This document shows, piece by piece, positions 5,925 to 13,175 of a stretch of DNA of 64,000 nt. Under the pieces are notes generated by a model that saw only the letters and a list, made by a program, of their open reading frames with translations, searched no databases and was not told the DNA's origin. The position numbers were made by a program, and so were the translations under genes. The stretch's first letter is position 1. Each line of letters opens with the position of its first letter. The DNA comes from Methanocaldococcus sp. 16A (lineage in GTDB: Archaea > AGJL01 > Methanococci > Methanococcales > Methanocaldococcaceae): NCBI GenBank assembly GCA_049860595.1, contig CP187551.1; one strand, given 5' to 3'.

Positions 5925-7181
5925 ATGGAAAGTTACATACAAAACTTATTTGCTGAGAGAATTGGTGGAAAAAAGTTTGGAAAAGAAGATGTAATTTACA
6001 AGTTTGAAAAGATAAAGAGAGCTAAGCAAGAAGCTATGAAAAGACATCCAGACATGGAATTAATAGACATGGGGGTTGGGGAGCCAGATGAAATGGCAGA
6101 CCCAGAAGTTATAAGAGTTTTGTGTGAAGAAGCTAAAAAATGGGAAAATAGAGGATATGCAGATAACGGAATTCAGGAGTTAAAAGATGCCGTACCTCCT
6201 TACATGGAAAAAGTTTATGGTGTTAAAGATATAGACCCAGTTAATGAGGTTATACACTCAATGGGTTCAAAGCCAGCATTGGCATATATAACCTCAGCAT
6301 TTATAAATCCTGGAGATGTTTGTTTAATGACAGTTCCTGGCTATCCAGTTACAGCAACACACACAAAATGGTATGGGGGGGAAGTTTATAATTTACCTTT
6401 ATTAGAGGAAAACAACTTTTTACCAGATTTAGAGAGCATTCCAGAGGATATTAAGAAGAGAGCAAAAATACTCTATCTCAATTATCCAAACAACCCAACA
6501 GGAGCTCAGGCAACAAAAAAGTTTTACAAAGAAGTTGTAGATTTTGCATTTGAAAATGAGGTTATTGTTGTTCAAGATGCTGCTTATGGAGCTTTGGTTT
6601 ATGATGGAAAGCCTCTCTCATTTTTATCAGTTAAAGATGCAAAAGAGGTTGGAGTTGAAATCCACAGCTTCTCAAAGGCATTTAACATGACTGGTTGGAG
6701 ATTAGCATTTTTAGTAGGAAATGAGCTTATAATTAAAGCGTTTGCAACTGTAAAGGATAACTTTGATAGCGGGCAATTTATTCCAATCCAAAAAGCTGGA
6801 ATATACTGTTTGCAACATCCAGAAATTACTGAAAGAATCAGACAGAAATATGAGAGAAGGTTAAGAAAGATGGTTAAGATATTAAATGAAGTTGGATTCA
6901 AAGCAAGAATGCCTGGAGGAACATTCTATTTATATGTTAAATCACCAAGAAGAGCTAATGGCATTGAATTTGAAACTGCAGAAGATTTCTCACAATATTT
7001 AATTAAAGAGAAGCTTATTTCAACAGTTCCATGGGATGATGCTGGACATTATTTAAGATTAGCTGCTTGCTTTGTAGCAAGAGATGAAAATGGAAATCCT
7101 ACAACAGAAGAAAAGTATGAAGATATAGTTTTAGAAGAATTTAAGAGAAGATTAGAAGATTTAGATTTGGAGTTTGAATAA
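5925..7181 (+). CDS. dapL: LL-diaminopimelate aminotransferase
   Basis: Class I PLP aminotransferase (NYPNNPTG, DAAY, SFSKAFNMTGWR) with a DapL-type N-terminus. Confidence 0.8.
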   Translation: MESYIQNLFAERIGGKKFGKEDVIYKFEKIKRAKQEAMKRHPDMELIDMGVGEPDEMADPEVIRVLCEEAKKWENRGYADNGIQELKDAVPPYMEKVYGVKDIDPVNEVIHSMGSKPALAYITSAFINPGDVCLMTVPGYPVTATHTKWYGGEVYNLPLLEENNFLPDLESIPEDIKKRAKILYLNYPNNPTGAQATKKFYKEVVDFAFENEVIVVQDAAYGALVYDGKPLSFLSVKDAKEVGVEIHSFSKAFNMTGWRLAFLVGNELIIKAFATVKDNFDSGQFIPIQKAGIYCLQHPEITERIRQKYERRLRKMVKILNEVGFKARMPGGTFYLYVKSPRRANGIEFETAEDFSQYLIKEKLISTVPWDDAGHYLRLAACFVARDENGNPTTEEKYEDIVLEEFKRRLEDLDLEFE

Positions 7182-7270
7182 GTTTTTATATTTTTTCTTA
7201 GAGTTATTTTTTAATTTATTTTATTTAAGTAAGACTTTTTATAATTGAATATAATTTGTGAATATCCCAT

Positions 7271-8518
7271 TTAAGTTCCCTCTCTCCAATCTTCTAAATA
7301 TCTTTTCTGCTCTTCAGTTAATTCATCTATCTCAATTCCCATAGATTTTAGCTTTAGAGAGGCAATCATCAAATCTTGCTCATAAGGAATGTTATAAACT
7401 CTTGGCTCTAATTTATCATGGTTCTTTAAAATATATTCAGCCCCTAAAGCTTGGTTTGCAAAGCTCATATCCATAACTTCACATGGATGTCCATCTGCAC
7501 ATGCTAAATTAACCAATCTTCCTTCTCCTAATAGGTATATTTTCTTATCTCCTAAATCATATTCAGTTACACAATTTCTAACTTCTTTTATTGATTTAGC
7601 TAACTCCTCTAAGTGCTTTTTATTAATTTCATTGTCAAAGTGTCCAGCATTTGCTAAGATGGCTCCATTTTTCATCTTTAATATGTGTTCTTTTCTAATA
7701 ACATCTTTACATCCAGTTGTTGTTATAAATATATCTCCAATCTCTGCAGCTTTTTCCATTTTCATGACTCTAAATCCATCCATTCTTGCCTCTAAAGCTC
7801 TAATAGGGTTTATTTCAGTAACAACAACTTCAGCTCCTAATCCCTTGGCTCTCATTGCTACTCCTCTACCACACCATCCATAACCTGCAACTACAACTGT
7901 TTTTCCAGCAATTAATAAGTTTGTAGCTCTCAAAATCCCATCTAAGGCACTCTGTCCAGTACCATATCTGTTGTCAAATAGATGTTTTGTGTATGCATCA
8001 TTTACATCCATAACTGGGAATTTTAAAGCTCCTTCTTTCTCCATTGCTTTAAGCCTTATAATTCCAGTTGTTGTTTCCTCACAACCTCCCAAAATTTTAT
8101 CTAAAAGCTCTGTTCTCTTTGTATGCAACAAAAATATTAAATCGCAACCATCATCTATAATAATATCTGGCTTATGGTCTAAGACTTTGTTTAAATTAGC
8201 GTAGTATTCTTCAACAGTCTCTCCTCTCCATGCATAGACGTGCATACCTTTCTTAGCACATGCTGCAGCAACATCATCTTGAGTAGAAAGAGGATTACAA
8301 CCAGTTATAGCAATTTCTGCTCCTCCCTTCATTAAAGTTTCTGCTAAAACAGCTGTCTTTGCCTCTAAATGCAAAGCCATTCCTATTGTTATTCCTTCAA
8401 ATGGTTTTTCTTCTTTAAATCTCTCTCTAATTAAACCTAAAACAGGCATGTGTTGTTTTGCCCATTGGATTTTTCTCTCTCCTTCTTTCCAAAGGTTTAT
8501 ATCCCTAACTTCATACAT
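7271..8518 (-). CDS. ahcY: Adenosylhomocysteinase (S-inosyl-homocysteine hydrolase type in methanogens)
   Basis: [30 protein letters not shown] motifs. Confidence 0.95.
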
Positions 8519-8879
8519 ACATTTCACCTAAAAATTATTTTTAAAAATTAGTAGAATAGCAATGATATATAAATTACTATTTGTATATTTTTTCATAATT
8601 TGTTAATTTTGAATATGTAAATTTATATTTCATTATCTTATTATATCATATTCTCTTGGTTTTAAACTTGAAATATAGTAAAACTTCCATAGAAATGAAT
8701 ATGTGTTATCCTTCAACATAATTATCAATACAACAAAATTAAGGTGTGTGGTAAAAGAAAATTTGTTCTAATTACTGCCATCATTTTCTAATAAAATCTG
8801 GATGTGGGAGATAAATATGGTTTTATAAACTTAAAGAAAAAACTATAAAAAATAAGAAACAAAAAAGGCAGGGATATAT

Positions 8880-10922
8880 ATGGAAAGTAAAAATGATTTC
8901 ATGATAAACATATTTAAGATTGACACTAAAAATATAAACTTGCCTAAAAAAGCATATTTATACAAAATAAACATTGAAGAAAATCTTGGTGAACAAAAAC
9001 TACAAGAAATCTACAAGACTTTAGCTAATACTTATGGGCATGTTGATGAGAATAATATACTCTATTCTTATAGAAGAGTAAAATACCTCCCACCAAACAT
9101 TAAAAATGTAACACTCATTACCCATGATACTTTAAACTTAGATGAATTACCTAACGAAATTTCAAGAGAAGTTTTAAGAGTATATTTCAAAAATGTTTTA
9201 AAAAAAGATGTTAGAACAATATTACGAAACCTTGAAGAGAAGTATTTACCAAAAAATACTGTAGGTAATTGGAATATATATTAAGAGAATATCCTATGGT
9301 TAAAAGAGGTATTTTATATGAAACTCTAAAAGATAAGGGAAAAATAGAAGAGTTTGATGATAACCAACCAGTAATTGCTGGAAAAAAGTCTAAAATCTAT
9401 ACTGATGTTCTATATTTCCTACCACAATATTGTTACCCGGCATACCACCCATACTTGGTAAAAAATTATGAATTGGCTGGAATTAACAATATAAAAAAAA
9501 ATAGTAAGTTATAACAAACCATTTATATTACAAGATGTGTGTAAAATGTTAGACTATTTAGAATTCTCAGAAGATTATCAAATAATCCCACTAAGAGAAC
9601 CGAAACTCAAGGCTATGTTCATACAAAACAATACTATAACAACAAAAACTGTCTCATCAACTGCAAAATTATTTGGAAACATTACACAATTAGCAAAAGG
9701 AATATATCCTAACTCTCTACCATGCCCACTCAAAATTCCAGATTATTTAAAAAACGCTGAAAAAATAATAGTATTCATATTAGTCCTCGATAACCTTACA
9801 CAACAAGAAAAAGAAAACTTTGTGAAAATTCTCAAAACTGCCTTTGGAATATATAATAACATGAGAGATGTGTGGATAGAATTTAAAATTCCCATGCCAT
9901 ATTTTGATTTTCGTAAAAAGATAATCTATTTTGAAAACTCAAAAAAAGGAATTTCAGAAGCTATAAAAAAGATAAACAACATTTGTAAAAATCACAATAT
10001 AGATTTCAATACTGTAAAATTTGCATTCATATTTGGAAAACGCAGTAATAATGATTTTGATTATTATCAGCCTTTAAAAAAAGCATTATTTGATAACCAT
10101 ATACTAAGTCAAAATATCTTAGTTGATGATACTAAATCTCTCTATGCATACTCAAATATTATTTACGACATGCTCACTAAATTAGGTTATAAGTTTCTTG
10201 CCCTCGAAAAAGAGTTACCTTATGATTACATTTTAGGAGTGGATGTAGGTTACAGTGAGGCATATACAGGAAGAGTTGCTTGTTGCACTGCTATATTTGA
10301 TAGTAATGGACTACTAAAAAATCTCATTCCTATAAGCATAGAGAATTTCCCAAACTCTGAAAGTGCGAGAATAGGAGAACTATTAAGAAGAATTGATGAT
10401 AGTCTAATATATAATGATATTAATTTTAGCAATTCAAGAATATTATTACTTAGAGATGGGTATTTACAAAGAAGAGAAATAAAAGAACTAGAAGAGTTTT
10501 CAAAAGAGAGGGATTGTGAAATTACATACATTGGAGTTAAGAAAAATATACCATTCCAATTATTTGTCAGCCAAGAGGAAAATAACAATAAGAGAAAATT
10601 CATTTATTACCCATTGTGTGTTCGTTTAGGAGATATATATTTACTCTGTGCTCATAAGACAACCTATGGTTATCCACGATTTATAAAAATTCATGAAAAA
10701 TATGAGATAAAAAATGGTATTGGAAAAAAAACACCAATAAGTGAAAAGGATATTAATATAATATATCAACTAACCGCATTAAACCACTCTTCAGTAGGTA
10801 ATCCAAGCAATCTAAGATTACCATGTCCAATATATTATTCAGATATGTTAGCTAAAGCCCTAAAAAAAGGTTGGAAATTGAGAGAAGAATTATTAAAAGA
10901 GGGTGTATTGTATTTTATTTAA
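8880..10922 (+). pseudogene. ago: Disrupted long prokaryotic Argonaute in three pieces: N (8880-9284), partial PAZ/L2 (~9272-9514), MID-PIWI (9537-10922)
   Basis: PIWI motifs GVDVG, LRDG, LRLPCPIYYSD; MID YYQPLK..SQNI..TKLG; C-terminal LYFI; PAZ-like DDNQPVI..FLPQYC; frame breaks at ~9272-9284 and at the A9 tract 9493-9501. Confidence 0.85.
9537..10922 (+). CDS. Argonaute L2-MID-PIWI fragment, open 461-aa frame
   Basis: Uninterrupted ORF carrying the catalytic D-E-D-D residues and the MID pocket. Confidence 0.85.
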   Translation: MCKMLDYLEFSEDYQIIPLREPKLKAMFIQNNTITTKTVSSTAKLFGNITQLAKGIYPNSLPCPLKIPDYLKNAEKIIVFILVLDNLTQQEKENFVKILKTAFGIYNNMRDVWIEFKIPMPYFDFRKKIIYFENSKKGISEAIKKINNICKNHNIDFNTVKFAFIFGKRSNNDFDYYQPLKKALFDNHILSQNILVDDTKSLYAYSNIIYDMLTKLGYKFLALEKELPYDYILGVDVGYSEAYTGRVACCTAIFDSNGLLKNLIPISIENFPNSESARIGELLRRIDDSLIYNDINFSNSRILLLRDGYLQRREIKELEEFSKERDCEITYIGVKKNIPFQLFVSQEENNNKRKFIYYPLCVRLGDIYLLCAHKTTYGYPRFIKIHEKYEIKNGIGKKTPISEKDINIIYQLTALNHSSVGNPSNLRLPCPIYYSDMLAKALKKGWKLREELLKEGVLYFI

Positions 10923-11413
10923 AAAATCCTCTTTAATATATGATTAACATTAAACACCAATAACATTATAGTATATAAAAAAATAAGAAGGTAACTTTGG
11001 CAGTTATGGGATATAAATGTGGAATTGTGGGGATTTGTGGTGATAATGTGAAGTTCATAGTTAAATATATCCTTCTCTATTTTCCCCTTTAATATCTTTA
11101 TCATAAGTTCTATATTTTTCATATATTTACACATATTATTAATTATTATCTTAACATCCTCTGCAATAATTTAAATAATAAAAGCTTTTTTCCTAAAAAA
11201 ACCAAATTATTTATCGAGAAAATCTTAATTTAAAAATAATTATCTAAAATCTTATAAAAATTTTACTAATTTAATGTATCCAAATAAACAAAATATTAAA
11301 AATAAGCTACCCATAAAAATTATCTAAAAATCCTTAAATCTAAAAAATAACCATTTAAAAAGATTTAAATTAAAAATAAAAAATTTTCAGCGTGATAACA
11401 AAAATTTAAAAAA

Positions 11414-12148
11414 TTAATAAACATCAAATAACTCTCCTAATGTTATTTTTTTATCTGTCTTAACTAACTCTGGAATTTTTCCTTTAATACCAACTTTATC
11501 TCTAACAACAACAAAAACTCCATCTATCTTTTCTATTTCATCTGCCTTTTCTAATGCGTTGTTTATCATCTCTTCCTCATCTCTTCCTCTTGAAGCGTTA
11601 CATATTGATGTTGCTGCTGCATCTGCTATAGCAGAGCTTTTAGCAAAAACAGTAACTGCATCAGCCTCTCCAAAACTTATTGAATGCCCTACTGTTGCTG
11701 ATGAAGTACAAACACCATAAATATTTTTAATTTTCTCCTTCTTTAATTTAAATCCAACTTCTCCAGTAATTTTAGAGTTTCCAGCATATAAGCCAACAAC
11801 AACATCTTTTTTAGCCCTCAGGCATATATCTCCACCATTTTCAGCAATGATGTTTTTTGCCCCAATATTTTTAATTAGCATCTCCGCTATAGCTCCAGCA
11901 ACACTCGCCATAGGTCCTACATTAGCAATTTCTCCAGCCATAGCCATTAACTTTACAATTTCTGGAGAATCTGCATCTATAGAAATTGGATAGTAAGATG
12001 TTAAGAAATAAGGATTTTTTAATATATATCTCTCCAATTCTAATCTATTTTTTAAGATAATTTCTTCTGCTTTCTTGAAATACCTCTTATCATCTACCTT
12101 TAAAAGTATATTCGTTTCTTTTATTATGATTCTTTTTTTAAACCACAT
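11414..12148 (-). CDS. UPF0280 / ApbE-like protein
   Basis: GPMASVAG, ENGGDI, TSSATVGHSISFG motifs. Confidence 0.85.
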   Translation of the reverse strand: MWFKKRIIIKETNILLKVDDKRYFKKAEEIILKNRLELERYILKNPYFLTSYYPISIDADSPEIVKLMAMAGEIANVGPMASVAGAIAEMLIKNIGAKNIIAENGGDICLRAKKDVVVGLYAGNSKITGEVGFKLKKEKIKNIYGVCTSSATVGHSISFGEADAVTVFAKSSAIADAAATSICNASRGRDEEEMINNALEKADEIEKIDGVFVVVRDKVGIKGKIPELVKTDKKITLGELFDVY

Positions 12149-12149
12149 G

Positions 12150-13121
12150 TTATTCCACCAAATTATAAAAATCTACAATCATTTTTAAGTCATCTTCTAA
12201 AATTCTACCTTTTGTAGTTAAATAATTTCCAACCATTAATCCATCCAAAGCCATTAAAGCATAGGATTGTAAATCTCTCAAATTATATACTCTTCCACCA
12301 GCCAATCTAATTTCTGCATAAGGCATAATTATTTTATATAAAGCCAAAGACTTTAGAGCATCTGAAATACCTATTGGCTTAATTTCTCCATTTTTTATTT
12401 TTTCATAAGCTTTAGTTCCTTCAATTGGGTGTAAAATATTTATTGGGACACTATCAACTCTTAACTCTTTAAGTTCAAAAGCCATTTTTATTCTTTCTTC
12501 TAAGCTTTCTCCAAGTCCAAATATCCCACCACTACAAACTTCTAAGCCAAGCTTTTTAGCCTCTTTTATTATTTTAACTTTATCTTCATAAGAATGAGTT
12601 GAGCATATGTTTTTAAAGTGGTTTTTTGATGTTTCTAAGTTGTTGTGCAATCTCACATTTAATTTTTTTAATTCCTTTAATTTTTCTTTCTCTAATAAAC
12701 CCAAAGAACAACATACTTTTAAATTTGTTTCTTCTTTTATGAGCTCTAGAGCTTCAAGAATTTCTATAAATTCATCATCATTAATTTTTTTACCACTTGT
12801 AACTATGCTAAATCTTTCAACGATTCCATCAAAATTTTTAGCATATTCTAAAATCTCCCTTTTTGATTTTAATGGATATATTGGGATGTTGCAATTATTG
12901 TGAATTGACTGAGAGCAGAAAATACAATTCTCTGAACATTTTCCACTTTTAGCGTTTATTATAGCACATAATTTAATTTTATCATTATTTTTTACTTTAT
13001 TTTTTATCTTAAAAGATAAATATAGCAAATCTATGGCATTGAAGTTTTTGTAAAGATATATGGCGTCATCAAAACTTATCCTATTTTTTAAAGATTTTTC
13101 TAAAAAAGTTTCAACATCCAT
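12150..13121 (-). CDS. bioB: Biotin synthase
   Basis: CxxxCxxC (CSENCIFC), HNNLET, CSGGIFG, SVPIN, RLAGGR, GNYLTT. Confidence 0.95.
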   Translation of the reverse strand: MDVETFLEKSLKNRISFDDAIYLYKNFNAIDLLYLSFKIKNKVKNNDKIKLCAIINAKSGKCSENCIFCSQSIHNNCNIPIYPLKSKREILEYAKNFDGIVERFSIVTSGKKINDDEFIEILEALELIKEETNLKVCCSLGLLEKEKLKELKKLNVRLHNNLETSKNHFKNICSTHSYEDKVKIIKEAKKLGLEVCSGGIFGLGESLEERIKMAFELKELRVDSVPINILHPIEGTKAYEKIKNGEIKPIGISDALKSLALYKIIMPYAEIRLAGGRVYNLRDLQSYALMALDGLMVGNYLTTKGRILEDDLKMIVDFYNLVE

Positions 13122-13175
13122 AAAAATCACCTTCCATCAGTAATAAAAATAAGATTTAAAGTTTATCTTAAAAAT

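What the first reader, a model, noticed from the sequence alone, without database searches (positions are those of the whole stretch)
8880..10922. Split Argonaute: N-lobe broken, MID-PIWI lobe catalytically intact
Seen: the ORF at 9537-10922 retains the 5'-phosphate pocket (YYQPLK, SQNI, TKLG), the tetrad D(GVDVG)-E(NSESAR)-D(LRDG)-D(YYSDML) and the terminal LYFI, with no stop in 461 codons. Upstream, a 134-aa N-domain ORF with its own RBS ends abruptly at 9284. The next frame starts in the distal half of PAZ (EYIL...DDNQPVI...FLPQYC), so L1 and proximal PAZ (several tens of residues, judged against MjAgo/PfAgo from memory) appear deleted. Established: long-A euryarchaeal pAgos are DNA-guided DNA nucleases, and A. 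fulgidus Ago works as a MID-PIWI protein paired with a separate N-lobe protein. Inference: either a recent pseudogene or a natural split, PAZ-less but catalytically competent pAgo.
Basis: partly seen in the sequence, partly recalled or inferred. Interest (0 to 1): 0.75.

Follow-up and report, generated by a model that had tools for sequence, protein, structure and literature searches.

The report
Broken Argonaute gene, recently inactivated
An archaeal Argonaute defence-nuclease gene has lost about 95 codons from its front half and carries a second frameshift, so it is most likely a young dead gene whose intact catalytic half has not had time to decay.

Summary
Window 8880-10922 is one long-A Argonaute gene in three pieces: frame A 8880-9284 (N domain, 134 aa), frame B ~9281-9514 (distal PAZ), and frame A 9537-10922 (L2-MID-PIWI, 461 aa). 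The last piece keeps the DEDD tetrad, the 5'-phosphate pocket and the C-terminal LYFI.

Seven intact relatives (782-818 aa; one is Ferroglobus placidus FpAgo) show two lesions:
- **Deletion:** an out-of-frame loss of 91-99 codons at ~9275-9285, covering the rest of L1 and proximal PAZ. The missing part is nowhere else in the genome.

All three pieces, including the orphan half-PAZ, are about as conserved as their intact relatives. An intact MID-PIWI therefore says nothing about selection, only that the breaks are young. No Shine-Dalgarno-like motif precedes the downstream ORFs. The other six Ago genes in the phylum sample are single open frames.

My odds: young pseudogene about 0.6; expressed N/PAZ-less nuclease or split Ago about 0.2; homopolymer error at the A9 run, with a real deletion, about 0.15.

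The gene lies in a 2.9-kb insertion beside an orphan CRISPR leader. No reads or RNA data were available, and the complex prediction never ran.

The parts
8544..11413 (.). 2870-nt insertion relative to same-genus genome G015. It holds the Ago gene, a 336-nt upstream flank and a 491-nt downstream flank.
   Evidence: blastn: window 6288-8543 and 11414-13174 match G015 (L029) at positions 36 nt apart. The closest relative, G011, has other DNA here and no Ago.
8880..9284 (+). Piece 1, frame A: a 134-aa ORF covering the N domain and the start of L1. It aligns to MjAgo 1-135 and to residues 1 to ~126-162 of the close relatives. It ends at TAA 9282-9284.
   Evidence: The AF2 model has pLDDT 80.6, with a confident core at residues 21-120 and poorly predicted ends. 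The top 9 Foldseek PDB hits are all Argonautes, at weak E-values of 1e-3 to 8e-2.
9270..9285 (+). Deletion junction, inside TGGAATATATATTAAG. The relatives have 91-99 more codons here (MjAgo 136-210: the rest of L1 and the first ~49 residues of the 96-residue PAZ). The frame changes from A to B, so the loss was 3n+1 nt.
   Evidence: tblastn mapping and alignment mapping. MjAgo PAZ_arc is 162-257 by Pfam. The missing part of P0002 (residues 135-226) matches nowhere in G000 at E<=1.
9281..9514 (+). Piece 2, frame B: distal half of PAZ plus the first L2 residues. It is listed as ORF 9269-9514 from TTG, or 72 aa from ATG 9296. It ends at TAA 9512-9514.
   Evidence: It is 33-49% identical to five close relatives and keeps 8 of 9 columns invariant in the seven relatives.
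9493..9501 (+). A9 homopolymer carrying a +1 frameshift (frame B to A). One A fewer would give a collinear reading through to L2.
   Evidence: It is the only A run of 9 in the gene and one of only 3 homopolymer-linked frame switches in the whole genome.
9537..10922 (+). Piece 3, frame A: the L2-MID-PIWI ORF, 461 aa from GTG 9537 or 458 aa from ATG 9546 (P0001). The frame is open from 9495.
   Evidence: The AF2 model has pLDDT 85.8 and pTM 0.87. The top Foldseek hits are TtdAgo 8wd8, MjAgo 5g5s and PfAgo 8jpx, with TMq 0.78-0.81.
10065..10181 (+). MID 5'-phosphate pocket codons: Y174 (10065-10067), K178 (10077-10079), Q189 (10110-10112) and K212 (10179-10181), in P0001 numbering.
   Evidence: They align with MjAgo DYYEILK / SQNI / GKLG. 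Q189 and K212 are invariant and Y174 and K178 nearly invariant across 22 sequences. The codon positions are computed from the sequence.
10242..10844 (+). Catalytic tetrad codons: D233 (10242-10244), E272 (10359-10361), D304 (10455-10457) and D433 (10842-10844).
   Evidence: Alignment to MjAgo. E272 and D304 are invariant, D233 and D433 nearly invariant. Codons were read.
11162..11398 (.). Orphan CRISPR-leader-like element between the Ago stop and the next gene. This is context, not part of the gene.
   Evidence: At least 8 other copies in G000 at 78-86% identity. All 3 copies I inspected adjoin arrays of 20-21 CRISPR repeats. No CRISPR repeat occurs in the window at up to 3 mismatches.

Best explanation
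This is a recently inactivated gene for a DNA-guided DNA endonuclease of the FpAgo-like branch of long-A prokaryotic Argonautes.

The gene came in by horizontal transfer as part of a 2.9-kb insertion between the UPF0280-family gene and ahcY, at a CRISPR-linked variable site (shown). It was then hit by two lesions (shown):
- an out-of-frame deletion of about 95 codons that removed the rest of L1 and the proximal half of PAZ;
- a +1 slippage in an A-run at the PAZ/L2 hinge.

Full-length Argonaute can no longer be made. The three remaining reading frames are relics that have not yet accumulated further damage. The DEDD tetrad, MID pocket and C-terminus of the 461-aa ORF are intact because the breaks are young, not because the ORF is under selection (inferred).

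Any protein made from the 458/461-aa ORF would be an incidental product of weak, SD-less or re-initiating translation (inferred).
For: **One gene in three frames, collinear with intact relatives.** P0004 residues 1-125, 223-286 and 296-790 map to 8901-9272, 9281-9472 and 9498-10919. The gap is 91-99 codons in all 7 close relatives.

**The missing segment is deleted, not moved.** P0002 residues 135-226 match nowhere else in the genome at E<=1.

**The orphan half-PAZ serves as a neutral control.** It cannot plausibly work alone, yet it has no stop in 76 codons (chance 8e-4), keeps 8 of 9 clade-invariant columns, and is 27-30% identical to the outgroup pair P0010/P0011, against 24-37% for intact relatives.

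**The other pieces show the same picture.**
- N: 24-26% identity to the outgroup, against 19-31% for intact relatives.
- MID-PIWI: 34%, against 33-37%.
- The MID-PIWI branch length is 0.72, against 0.56-1.62 for clade mates.

No piece has decayed, so the breaks are young.

**No translation signal downstream.** No SD-like match of 4 or more bases precedes 9269, 9296, 9537 or 9546. By contrast, 48 of 56 long open frames in the window have one, and 31 of 56 have a match of 5 or more.

**The architecture is not conserved.**
- All 6 other Ago-bearing genomes of the 40 sampled have one open frame of 710-884 aa.
- 8 of 10 uncut family loci are intact at 644-829 aa, and the other two (L039, L042) are plain frameshifted copies. 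Gene decay is therefore common in this family.
- The window's protein cluster is a singleton.
Against: **Lesion placement.** Both lesions fall in the first third of the gene, and the 1386-nt catalytic ORF has none. That is what a selected C-lobe would also look like, but with two events, one of them at a hot spot, it carries little weight.

**A re-initiation cascade is conceivable.** The N ORF's stop is 12 nt before ATG 9296, and the middle ORF's stop is 23-32 nt before GTG 9537 / ATG 9546.

**Both end pieces are predicted to fold on their own.** MID-PIWI has pLDDT 85.8 and the N core has pLDDT of about 86 or more over residues 21-120.

**An isolated C-lobe can be active.** The isolated C-lobe of a yeast slicer Argonaute is reported to keep slicer activity (PMC10772731, section 3 passage).

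**Other L2-MID-PIWI-only ORFs with an intact tetrad exist.** P0019/P0066 (402/428 aa) lie on contigs of 13 and 38 kb.

**Slight excess of change in MID-PIWI.** It departs at 5 of 60 columns invariant in 12 intact homologues. Each of those 12, tested against the other 11, departs at 0-4 of 60-64 columns. This is a slight excess, as expected of an isolated branch, and it points neither way.

**No expression or read data** could be obtained.
Confidence: 0.6

Rival explanations
1. Functional truncated or split Argonaute. The 458/461-aa L2-MID-PIWI protein is made and acts as an N- and PAZ-less DNA-guided, or promiscuous, nuclease. It could act alone like a catalytically active 'short' Ago, or with the 134-aa N fragment docking in trans.
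For: - The tetrad, MID pocket and C-terminus are intact, and the fold is predicted with confidence.
- MID-PIWI shows no rate acceleration.
- All three ORFs were called as genes in the source annotation.
- The isolated C-lobe of yeast Ago keeps slicer activity (PMC10772731, section 3).
- Split pAgos exist: fAfAgo (PMC10954474).
- Breaks at the same PAZ/L2 hinge leave tetrad-intact C-lobe ORFs in L039 and P0019/P0066.
- An earlier, unchecked note in this scan reports a split DEDH Ago family in other archaea.
Against: - The half-PAZ piece is equally well preserved, so preservation cannot be credited to selection.
- The downstream starts have no SD-like motif.
- The split point and domain content differ from known split pAgos: L1 is lost and L2 sits on the C-lobe.
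- The arrangement is unique to this genome among those searched.
- The two other broken loci are simple frameshifts at A runs, or multi-lesion copies, which fits decay at a mutational hot spot.
Confidence: 0.2
2. Partial assembly artefact. The A9 run is a homopolymer miscount, truly A8, so the real gene has only one lesion, the deletion. It would then encode the 134-aa N ORF plus a half-PAZ-L2-MID-PIWI ORF of about 547 aa starting at ATG 9296.
For: - Removing one A gives a reading collinear with the relatives, residue for residue.
- The only two other homopolymer-linked frame switches in the genome also split ordinary-looking genes at A8/A9 runs: a MoeA homologue and a ChlI/ChlD-like AAA-VWA protein. 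That pattern would fit residual homopolymer errors.
Against: - Only 3 such cases occur among about 200 A/T runs of 8 or more (184 of 8, 14 of 9, 2 of 10), so there is no systematic error.
- Slippage at such runs is also the commonest real frameshift mutation.
- L039 shows an analogous +1 in an A6 run in another assembly.
- Even if this reading is true, the gene remains broken by the deletion.
Confidence: 0.15
3. Whole artefact. The gene is intact in the organism, and both the deletion and the frameshift are assembly errors.
For: No reads could be inspected, because no sequencing run was listed.
Against: - A clean loss of about 285 nt inside a unique gene is not a typical assembly error.
- No internal repeat that could collapse the region was found. 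Only a 16-nt near-copy of the junction lies 575 nt downstream, at 9844-9859.
- The assembly is near-finished: 3 contigs, 99.98% complete.
Confidence: 0.03

Closest known systems
FpAgo, the Argonaute of Ferroglobus placidus (P0003, 782 aa; PMC8248672, abstract and section 12 read)
   Same: It belongs to the same clade (100/99 support) and is 42-45% identical over L2-MID-PIWI. It shares the DEDD tetrad. FpAgo is a 5'-P DNA-guided DNA endonuclease active at 75-99 C (abstract).
   Different: FpAgo is a single 782-aa chain with a complete PAZ, which that paper links to guide-length choice. The window gene lacks 99 of the corresponding codons and is split over three frames.
MjAgo (PDB 5g5s/5g5t) and its same-genus homologues in G010 and G006
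   Same: It is the best solved-structure match (E 6.8e-48; TMq 0.75-0.78). All catalytic and pocket residues align.
   Different: Identity is only 34-38%. It is a different clade at a different genomic locus. MjAgo is intact at 713 aa.
fAfAgo: the AfAgo-N plus AfAgo heterodimer and other split long-B pAgos (PMC10954474; passages and section 21 read)
   Same: A MID-PIWI protein is encoded downstream of an ORF for the N-terminal part. In the reference strain, the upstream AfAgo-N ORF is itself cut short by a 2-bp deletion.
   Different: AfAgo is long-B and catalytically inactive. AfAgo-N carries N-L1-L2, and the split is shared by relatives with a downstream effector gene. Here the tetrad is intact, L1 is lost, L2 sits on the C-lobe ORF, a third orphan piece exists, there is no effector gene, and no relative shares the split.
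Truncated long pAgos lacking PAZ, from the census of Ryazansky et al. 2018 (PMC6299218, section 7 passages read)
   Same: That census lists 31 long pAgos without PAZ, scattered over the tree, with light-green 'truncated long-A' variants marked in its tree legend. The 458-aa ORF would be scored as one of these.
   Different: Here the upstream DNA shows that the truncation is a fresh lesion in a full-length gene, not a stable architecture.
Isolated C-terminal lobe of a budding-yeast slicer Argonaute (PDB 5the; review PMC10772731, section 3)
   Same: It is an engineered L2/MID-PIWI-only protein with an intact tetrad. It is reported to keep slicer activity but to cleave partly complementary targets. 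5the is among the fold matches (rank 22).
   Different: It is eukaryotic, RNA-guided and man-made.

Membership tests
Long-A (catalytically active) prokaryotic Argonaute | PIWI domain | tested here: met
   Pfam PF02171: E 1.8e-21, 77.1 bits against a cut-off of 28.9, residues 169-447. Fold match to TtdAgo, MjAgo and PfAgo with TMq 0.78-0.81.
Long-A (catalytically active) prokaryotic Argonaute | Complete DEDX catalytic tetrad | tested here: met
   D233, E272, D304 and D433 align with the MjAgo tetrad positions. E272 and D304 are invariant and D233 and D433 nearly invariant in 22 sequences.
Long-A (catalytically active) prokaryotic Argonaute | MID 5'-phosphate pocket (YK type) and a C-terminus that completes it | tested here: met
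   Y174, K178, Q189 and K212 and the terminal LYFI are conserved. The 'YK type' label is taken from PMC6299218.
Long-A (catalytically active) prokaryotic Argonaute | Full PAZ domain | tested here: not met
   MjAgo-equivalent residues 136-210 are absent, and PAZ_arc spans 162-257. Only the distal half remains, in another frame.
Long-A (catalytically active) prokaryotic Argonaute | Single N-L1-PAZ-L2-MID-PIWI polypeptide | tested here: not met
   Three frames separated by stops.
Long-A (catalytically active) prokaryotic Argonaute | Guide-dependent target cleavage | not testable with these tools
   Needs biochemistry.
Split pAgo (fAfAgo-like heterodimer) | Upstream gene encodes the complete N-L1-L2 (APAZ-like) partner | tested here: not met
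   The upstream ORF aligns only to MjAgo 1-135, which is N plus part of L1. L2 lies on the MID-PIWI ORF.
Split pAgo (fAfAgo-like heterodimer) | Split arrangement conserved among relatives | tested here: not met
   None of the 6 other Ago-bearing genomes among the 40 sampled is split. 8 of 10 uncut family loci are single open frames, and the 2 others are frameshifted copies.
Split pAgo (fAfAgo-like heterodimer) | Translation signals or coupling for the downstream gene | tested here: inconclusive
   There is no SD-like motif before 9296, 9537 or 9546. Stop-to-start distances of 12 and 23-32 nt would allow re-initiation.
Split pAgo (fAfAgo-like heterodimer) | The two proteins form a complex | not tested
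   The complex-prediction job (N fragment plus MID-PIWI, alignments A1 and A2) could not be run.
Pseudogene (young) | Frame-disrupting lesions relative to intact homologues, with the lost part absent from the genome | tested here: met
Pseudogene (young) | Relaxed selection or extra damage in the remaining pieces | tested here: inconclusive
   No piece shows acceleration, which fits either a very young break or continued function. dN/dS cannot be computed because the nearest relative is only 45-47% identical.
Pseudogene (young) | No expression of a functional product | not testable with these tools
   No sequencing run was listed.

The most novel reading that the evidence does not exclude
The conserved Lys-rich PAZ/L2 hinge of these AT-rich archaeal Argonaute genes is encoded by A runs, which act as a natural breakpoint.

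Frameshifts there arose independently in the window (A9) and in L039 (A6). They probably also arose in the P0019/P0066 lineage, whose ORF starts at MjAgo residue 275.

Each break releases a free L2-MID-PIWI lobe that still has its full catalytic tetrad. In this genome that lobe would be expressed as an N- and PAZ-less nuclease, possibly helped in trans by the 134-aa N fragment. It would be a living intermediate on the route from long to short Argonautes that has not yet lost catalysis.
Probability: 0.15. Interest if true: 0.7.

Novelty: new member of a known kind. Interest (0 to 1): 0.3.

Why it matters
If the ordinary reading is right, this is one more decaying defence gene. It is useful mainly as a caution: a 'truncated long-A pAgo' in a protein database can be the tail of a freshly broken full-length gene.

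It also documents a rare FpAgo-like Argonaute clade, with only 60 relatives among 1.84 billion cluster representatives.

If the catalytic lobe were expressed, it would be the first natural N/PAZ-less Argonaute with an intact tetrad that I am aware of. It would allow a direct test of the idea in the Nakanishi review, that free catalytic C-lobes are promiscuous and therefore selected against.

The recurrence of breaks at the same poly-A-encoded hinge in other lineages is a small, testable lead on how Argonautes get split.

Tried and rejected
**Searches and jobs that gave nothing**
- **Raw reads and RNA:** The look-up of sequencing runs on 8800-11000 listed no run of any kind, so no RNA holder was listed and read laying was never used.
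- **Close relatives for dN/dS:** a metagenome scan with P0001 found none. The nearest protein is 45-47% identical, so synonymous sites are saturated and no dN/dS was attempted.
- **Context of P0019/P0066:** Whether an N-lobe gene lies upstream of it remains unknown.
- **Complex prediction:** There is no result, so it counts neither for nor against.
- **Rfam:** no match on 8300-11600 at E<=1.
- **Frameshift-stimulating RNA structure:** none after the A9 run (z -1.36; 20 of 200 shuffles fold as well).
- **Plasmid origin:** tblastn of P0001 against 72,556 plasmids gave no match.
- **Pfam on the small pieces:** no family for either the N or the half-PAZ piece at E<=1. Their identity rests on alignment to relatives.
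- **Internal promoter:** a TATA-like TTTATATT at 9522-9529 lies too close to ATG 9546 for the usual spacing of about 26 nt. That is my reading of the sequence using a recalled rule, and no tool here models archaeal promoters.

**Considered and set aside**
- **Microhomology or repeat-mediated deletion:** only a 16-nt near-copy of the junction lies 575 nt downstream (D5). Without the ancestral DNA, nothing can be concluded.
- **Compensating frameshifts:** the two lesions sum to zero, but frame A across 9285-9494 is full of stops, so there is no read-through.
- **Earlier findings of this scan:** nothing by place or by sequence.
Full report
**What is in the sequence.**

The window holds three same-strand ORFs at 8880-9284 (134 aa), 9269-9514 (81 aa) and 9537-10922 (461 aa). 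The three-frame translations show that the first and third share a frame (A) and the middle one uses another (B).

The 461-aa ORF is an Argonaute C-lobe:
- Pfam Piwi scores 1.8e-21.
- The best solved relatives are MjAgo 5g5t (6.8e-48, aligning ORF residues 22-461 to MjAgo 300-713), then PfAgo and TtdAgo.
- An AlphaFold2 model from a 22-sequence alignment has pLDDT 85.8 and pTM 0.87. It superposes on TtdAgo, MjAgo and PfAgo with TMq 0.78-0.81.

In P0001 numbering the tetrad is D233/E272/D304/D433 and the MID pocket is Y174/K178/Q189/K212.

**Which Argonaute, and what is missing.**

The word-index search found 8 proteins. The exhaustive representative search found only 60 at E<=0.001 among 1.84 billion, so this is a rare clade.

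The nearest intact relatives are 782-818 aa:
- P0002 (named Methanocaldococcus sp. by its source, 805 aa);
- P0003 (Ferroglobus placidus, that is FpAgo);
- P0004, P0006, P0009, P0010 and P0011.

An ML tree of the MID-PIWI part puts the window protein inside this clade (100/99 support) as a deep branch.

tblastn of these proteins against the window shows one collinear gene. For P0004, residues 1-125 map to 8901-9272 (frame A), 223-286 to 9281-9472 (frame B) and 296-790 to 9498-10919 (frame A). Adding the pieces to an alignment of intact proteins gives a gap of 93, 99, 95, 95, 94, 97 and 91 residues in the seven close relatives, and 75 in the two MjAgo-type proteins (MjAgo 136-210).

Pfam places MjAgo's N-like domain at 21-89, PAZ at 162-257 and Piwi at 425-698.

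The junction lies in TGGAATATATATTAAG (9269-9284). The frame change means 3n+1 bases were lost.

Searching the whole genome with P0002 returns only the three window pieces (query 4-134, 227-291, 297-805). Residues 135-226 match nowhere at E<=1, so the segment was deleted, not moved.

**A second lesion.**

Between the distal-PAZ piece and L2, the frame returns from B to A within the A9 run at 9493-9501. With one A fewer, the reading is collinear with the relatives residue for residue (my reading of the alignment). It is the only A run of 9 in the gene, which has 15 runs of 6 or more.

Genome-wide I found about 184 A/T runs of 8, 14 of 9 and 2 of 10. Only three homopolymer-linked frame switches turned up: this one, one splitting a MoeA homologue at an A8 run, and one splitting a ChlI/ChlD-like AAA-VWA protein at an A9 run. 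So there is no systematic homopolymer error, but I cannot exclude that these three are residual miscounts. Even then, the deletion keeps the gene broken.

**Is the intact C-lobe evidence of function?**

The key control is the middle piece. Half a PAZ domain, in its own frame and without a ribosome-binding site, has no plausible function. Yet it has no stop in 76 codons (chance 8e-4), is 33-49% identical to the five close relatives, and keeps 8 of 9 columns invariant in the seven.

I measured each piece against the outgroup pair P0010/P0011:

| Piece | Window identity to outgroup | Intact relatives' identity to outgroup |
|---|---|---|
| N | 26 / 24% | 19-31% |
| Half-PAZ | 27 / 30% | 24-37% |
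| MID-PIWI | 34 / 34% | 33-37% |

The MID-PIWI branch is 0.72 substitutions per site, against 0.56-1.62 for clade mates measured from the same node.

The window keeps 10 of 10 (N), 8 of 9 (half-PAZ) and 79 of 90 (MID-PIWI) clade-invariant columns. It keeps 55 of 60 MID-PIWI columns invariant in all 12 intact proteins used. Each of those 12, tested against the other 11, departs at 0-4 of 60-64 columns. That is a slight excess, expected for an isolated branch.

All three pieces therefore look equally undecayed. The simplest reading is that the breaks are recent on the scale of this family's divergence. Intactness of the catalytic ORF cannot be credited to selection.

**Translation signals.**

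In this window, 48 of 56 long open frames have a match of 4 or more bases to a GGAGGTGATC-type motif within 18 nt of a candidate start, and 31 have a match of 5 or more. The 56 include the Ago ORF itself and a few likely spurious frames, and the best start among the first 100 codons was chosen, which flatters the count.

The starts at 8880, 9269, 9296, 9537 and 9546 all score 0. The 8880 start has AGGGA, similar to a few other genes, and is probably the original start.

The short stop-to-start gaps (9284 to 9296; 9514 to 9537/9546) would permit re-initiation. That is inference, not evidence. No structured RNA follows the A run.

**Comparative context.**

- Only 7 of 41 related genomes have any homologue.
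- With a full-length profile, the 6 other positive genomes of 40 all show single open frames of 710-884 aa without stops.
- Among 12 family loci from the species-representative collection, 2 are cut by contig ends and 8 are intact (644-829 aa).
- L039 carries one +1 in an A6 run (aggaaaaaacac), and L042 has at least two frame breaks.
- L039's break and the start of the 402/428-aa L2-MID-PIWI-only proteins P0019/P0066 (DEDH, aligned from MjAgo 275; contigs of 13 and 38 kb) fall within a few residues of the window's A9 run. This is my reading. The region is poorly conserved, so allow about five residues either way.
- The relatives have a Lys-rich stretch there, which A+T-rich genomes encode as A runs. 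A mutational hot spot explains the recurrence, although survivorship of foldable lobes is an alternative worth testing.

**Locus.**

Relative to same-genus genome G015, where the UPF0280-family gene and ahcY are 36 nt apart, window 8544-11413 is a 2870-nt insertion containing only the Ago gene and its flanks. The closest relative G011 (AhcY 99% identical) has no Ago. It carries a two-repeat CRISPR mini-array at the same site.

The Ago's downstream flank (11162-11398) is a copy of a ~235-nt element with at least 8 other genomic copies. The three copies I inspected adjoin CRISPR arrays of 20-21 repeats, yet the window has no CRISPR repeat. This is an orphan leader. The gene thus sits in a variable, CRISPR-linked defence hot spot, consistent with horizontal acquisition. 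No plasmid relative was found.

**Comparison with what is known.**

- **FpAgo** is a 5'-P DNA-guided DNA endonuclease working at 75-99 C with a DEDX tetrad (PMC8248672, abstract and section 12). That is the activity the ancestral intact gene most likely had (inference from 42-45% identity and conserved catalytic residues).
- **Split pAgos.** In the passages I read of PMC10954474, they are long-B or short, catalytically inactive, have an N-L1-L2 partner, and are conserved with a downstream effector. None of those features holds here. Interestingly, the reference-strain AfAgo-N ORF is itself truncated by a 2-bp deletion.
- **The 2018 census** (PMC6299218, section 7) lists 31 long pAgos without PAZ scattered over the tree. 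This locus shows how such an entry can arise from a fresh lesion.
- **A yeast Ago C-lobe** retains slicing but becomes promiscuous (PMC10772731, section 3). A free catalytic lobe is therefore biochemically possible, but possibly harmful.
I did not check it.

**Verdict.**

The functional split or truncated nuclease stays open at about 0.2. A homopolymer miscount at the A9 run, with a real deletion, is at about 0.15, and a wholly artefactual break at about 0.03.

Nothing here could test expression, the reads, or complex formation. The complex job never ran.

Noticed in passing
window 11162-11398: Orphan CRISPR-leader-like element directly downstream of the Ago gene. At least 8 other copies exist in the genome (78-86% identity). 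The 3 I inspected adjoin CRISPR arrays of 20-21 repeats, but the window has no CRISPR repeat at up to 3 mismatches.
   Followed up: partly
L028 8762-8847 (G011) and L029 ~8742-8779 (G015): The same intergenic site upstream of ahcY differs between relatives. The closest relative, G011, holds a two-repeat CRISPR mini-array there. G015 has an empty site: 36 nt between the UPF0280-family gene and ahcY. It looks like a variable defence hot spot.
   Followed up: partly
G000 C1:587205 (outside the window; L050 217-1348): A MoeA homologue is split at an A8 run into a MoeA_N ORF (144 aa) and a MoCF_biosynth plus MoeA_C ORF (226 aa). This is either a real frameshift or a homopolymer miscount.
   Followed up: partly
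G000 C1:973580, minus strand (outside the window; L051 304-2357): A ChlI/ChlD-like protein is split at an A9 run in its Lys/Glu-rich linker, giving an AAA ORF of 365 aa and a downstream VWA-containing open frame.
   Followed up: partly
L039 3058-5239 (~3885): A P0012-like Argonaute (72-79% identical) in an uncultured-archaeon MAG is broken by a +1 in an A6 run. The break falls at essentially the same PAZ/L2 hinge position as the window's A9 run, and the tetrad is intact.
   Followed up: partly
L042 2938-5155: Another family member in a MAG is in at least three pieces (356, 266 and 126 aa), and the RDG region is lost to a frame change. It is a more advanced pseudogene or a poor assembly.
   Followed up: partly
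P0019 / P0066 (no locus available): An MjAgo-like L2-MID-PIWI-only protein of 402/428 aa with a DEDH tetrad, starting at MjAgo residue 275. It is seen on contigs of 13 and 38 kb, one named a Thermotogota MAG. Its upstream context could not be fetched.
   Followed up: partly
window 9269-9284 and 9844-9859: The 16-nt deletion-junction sequence TTGGAATATATATTAA has a 15/16 copy 575 nt downstream, inside the MID region. This is probably chance in A+T-rich DNA.
   Followed up: no
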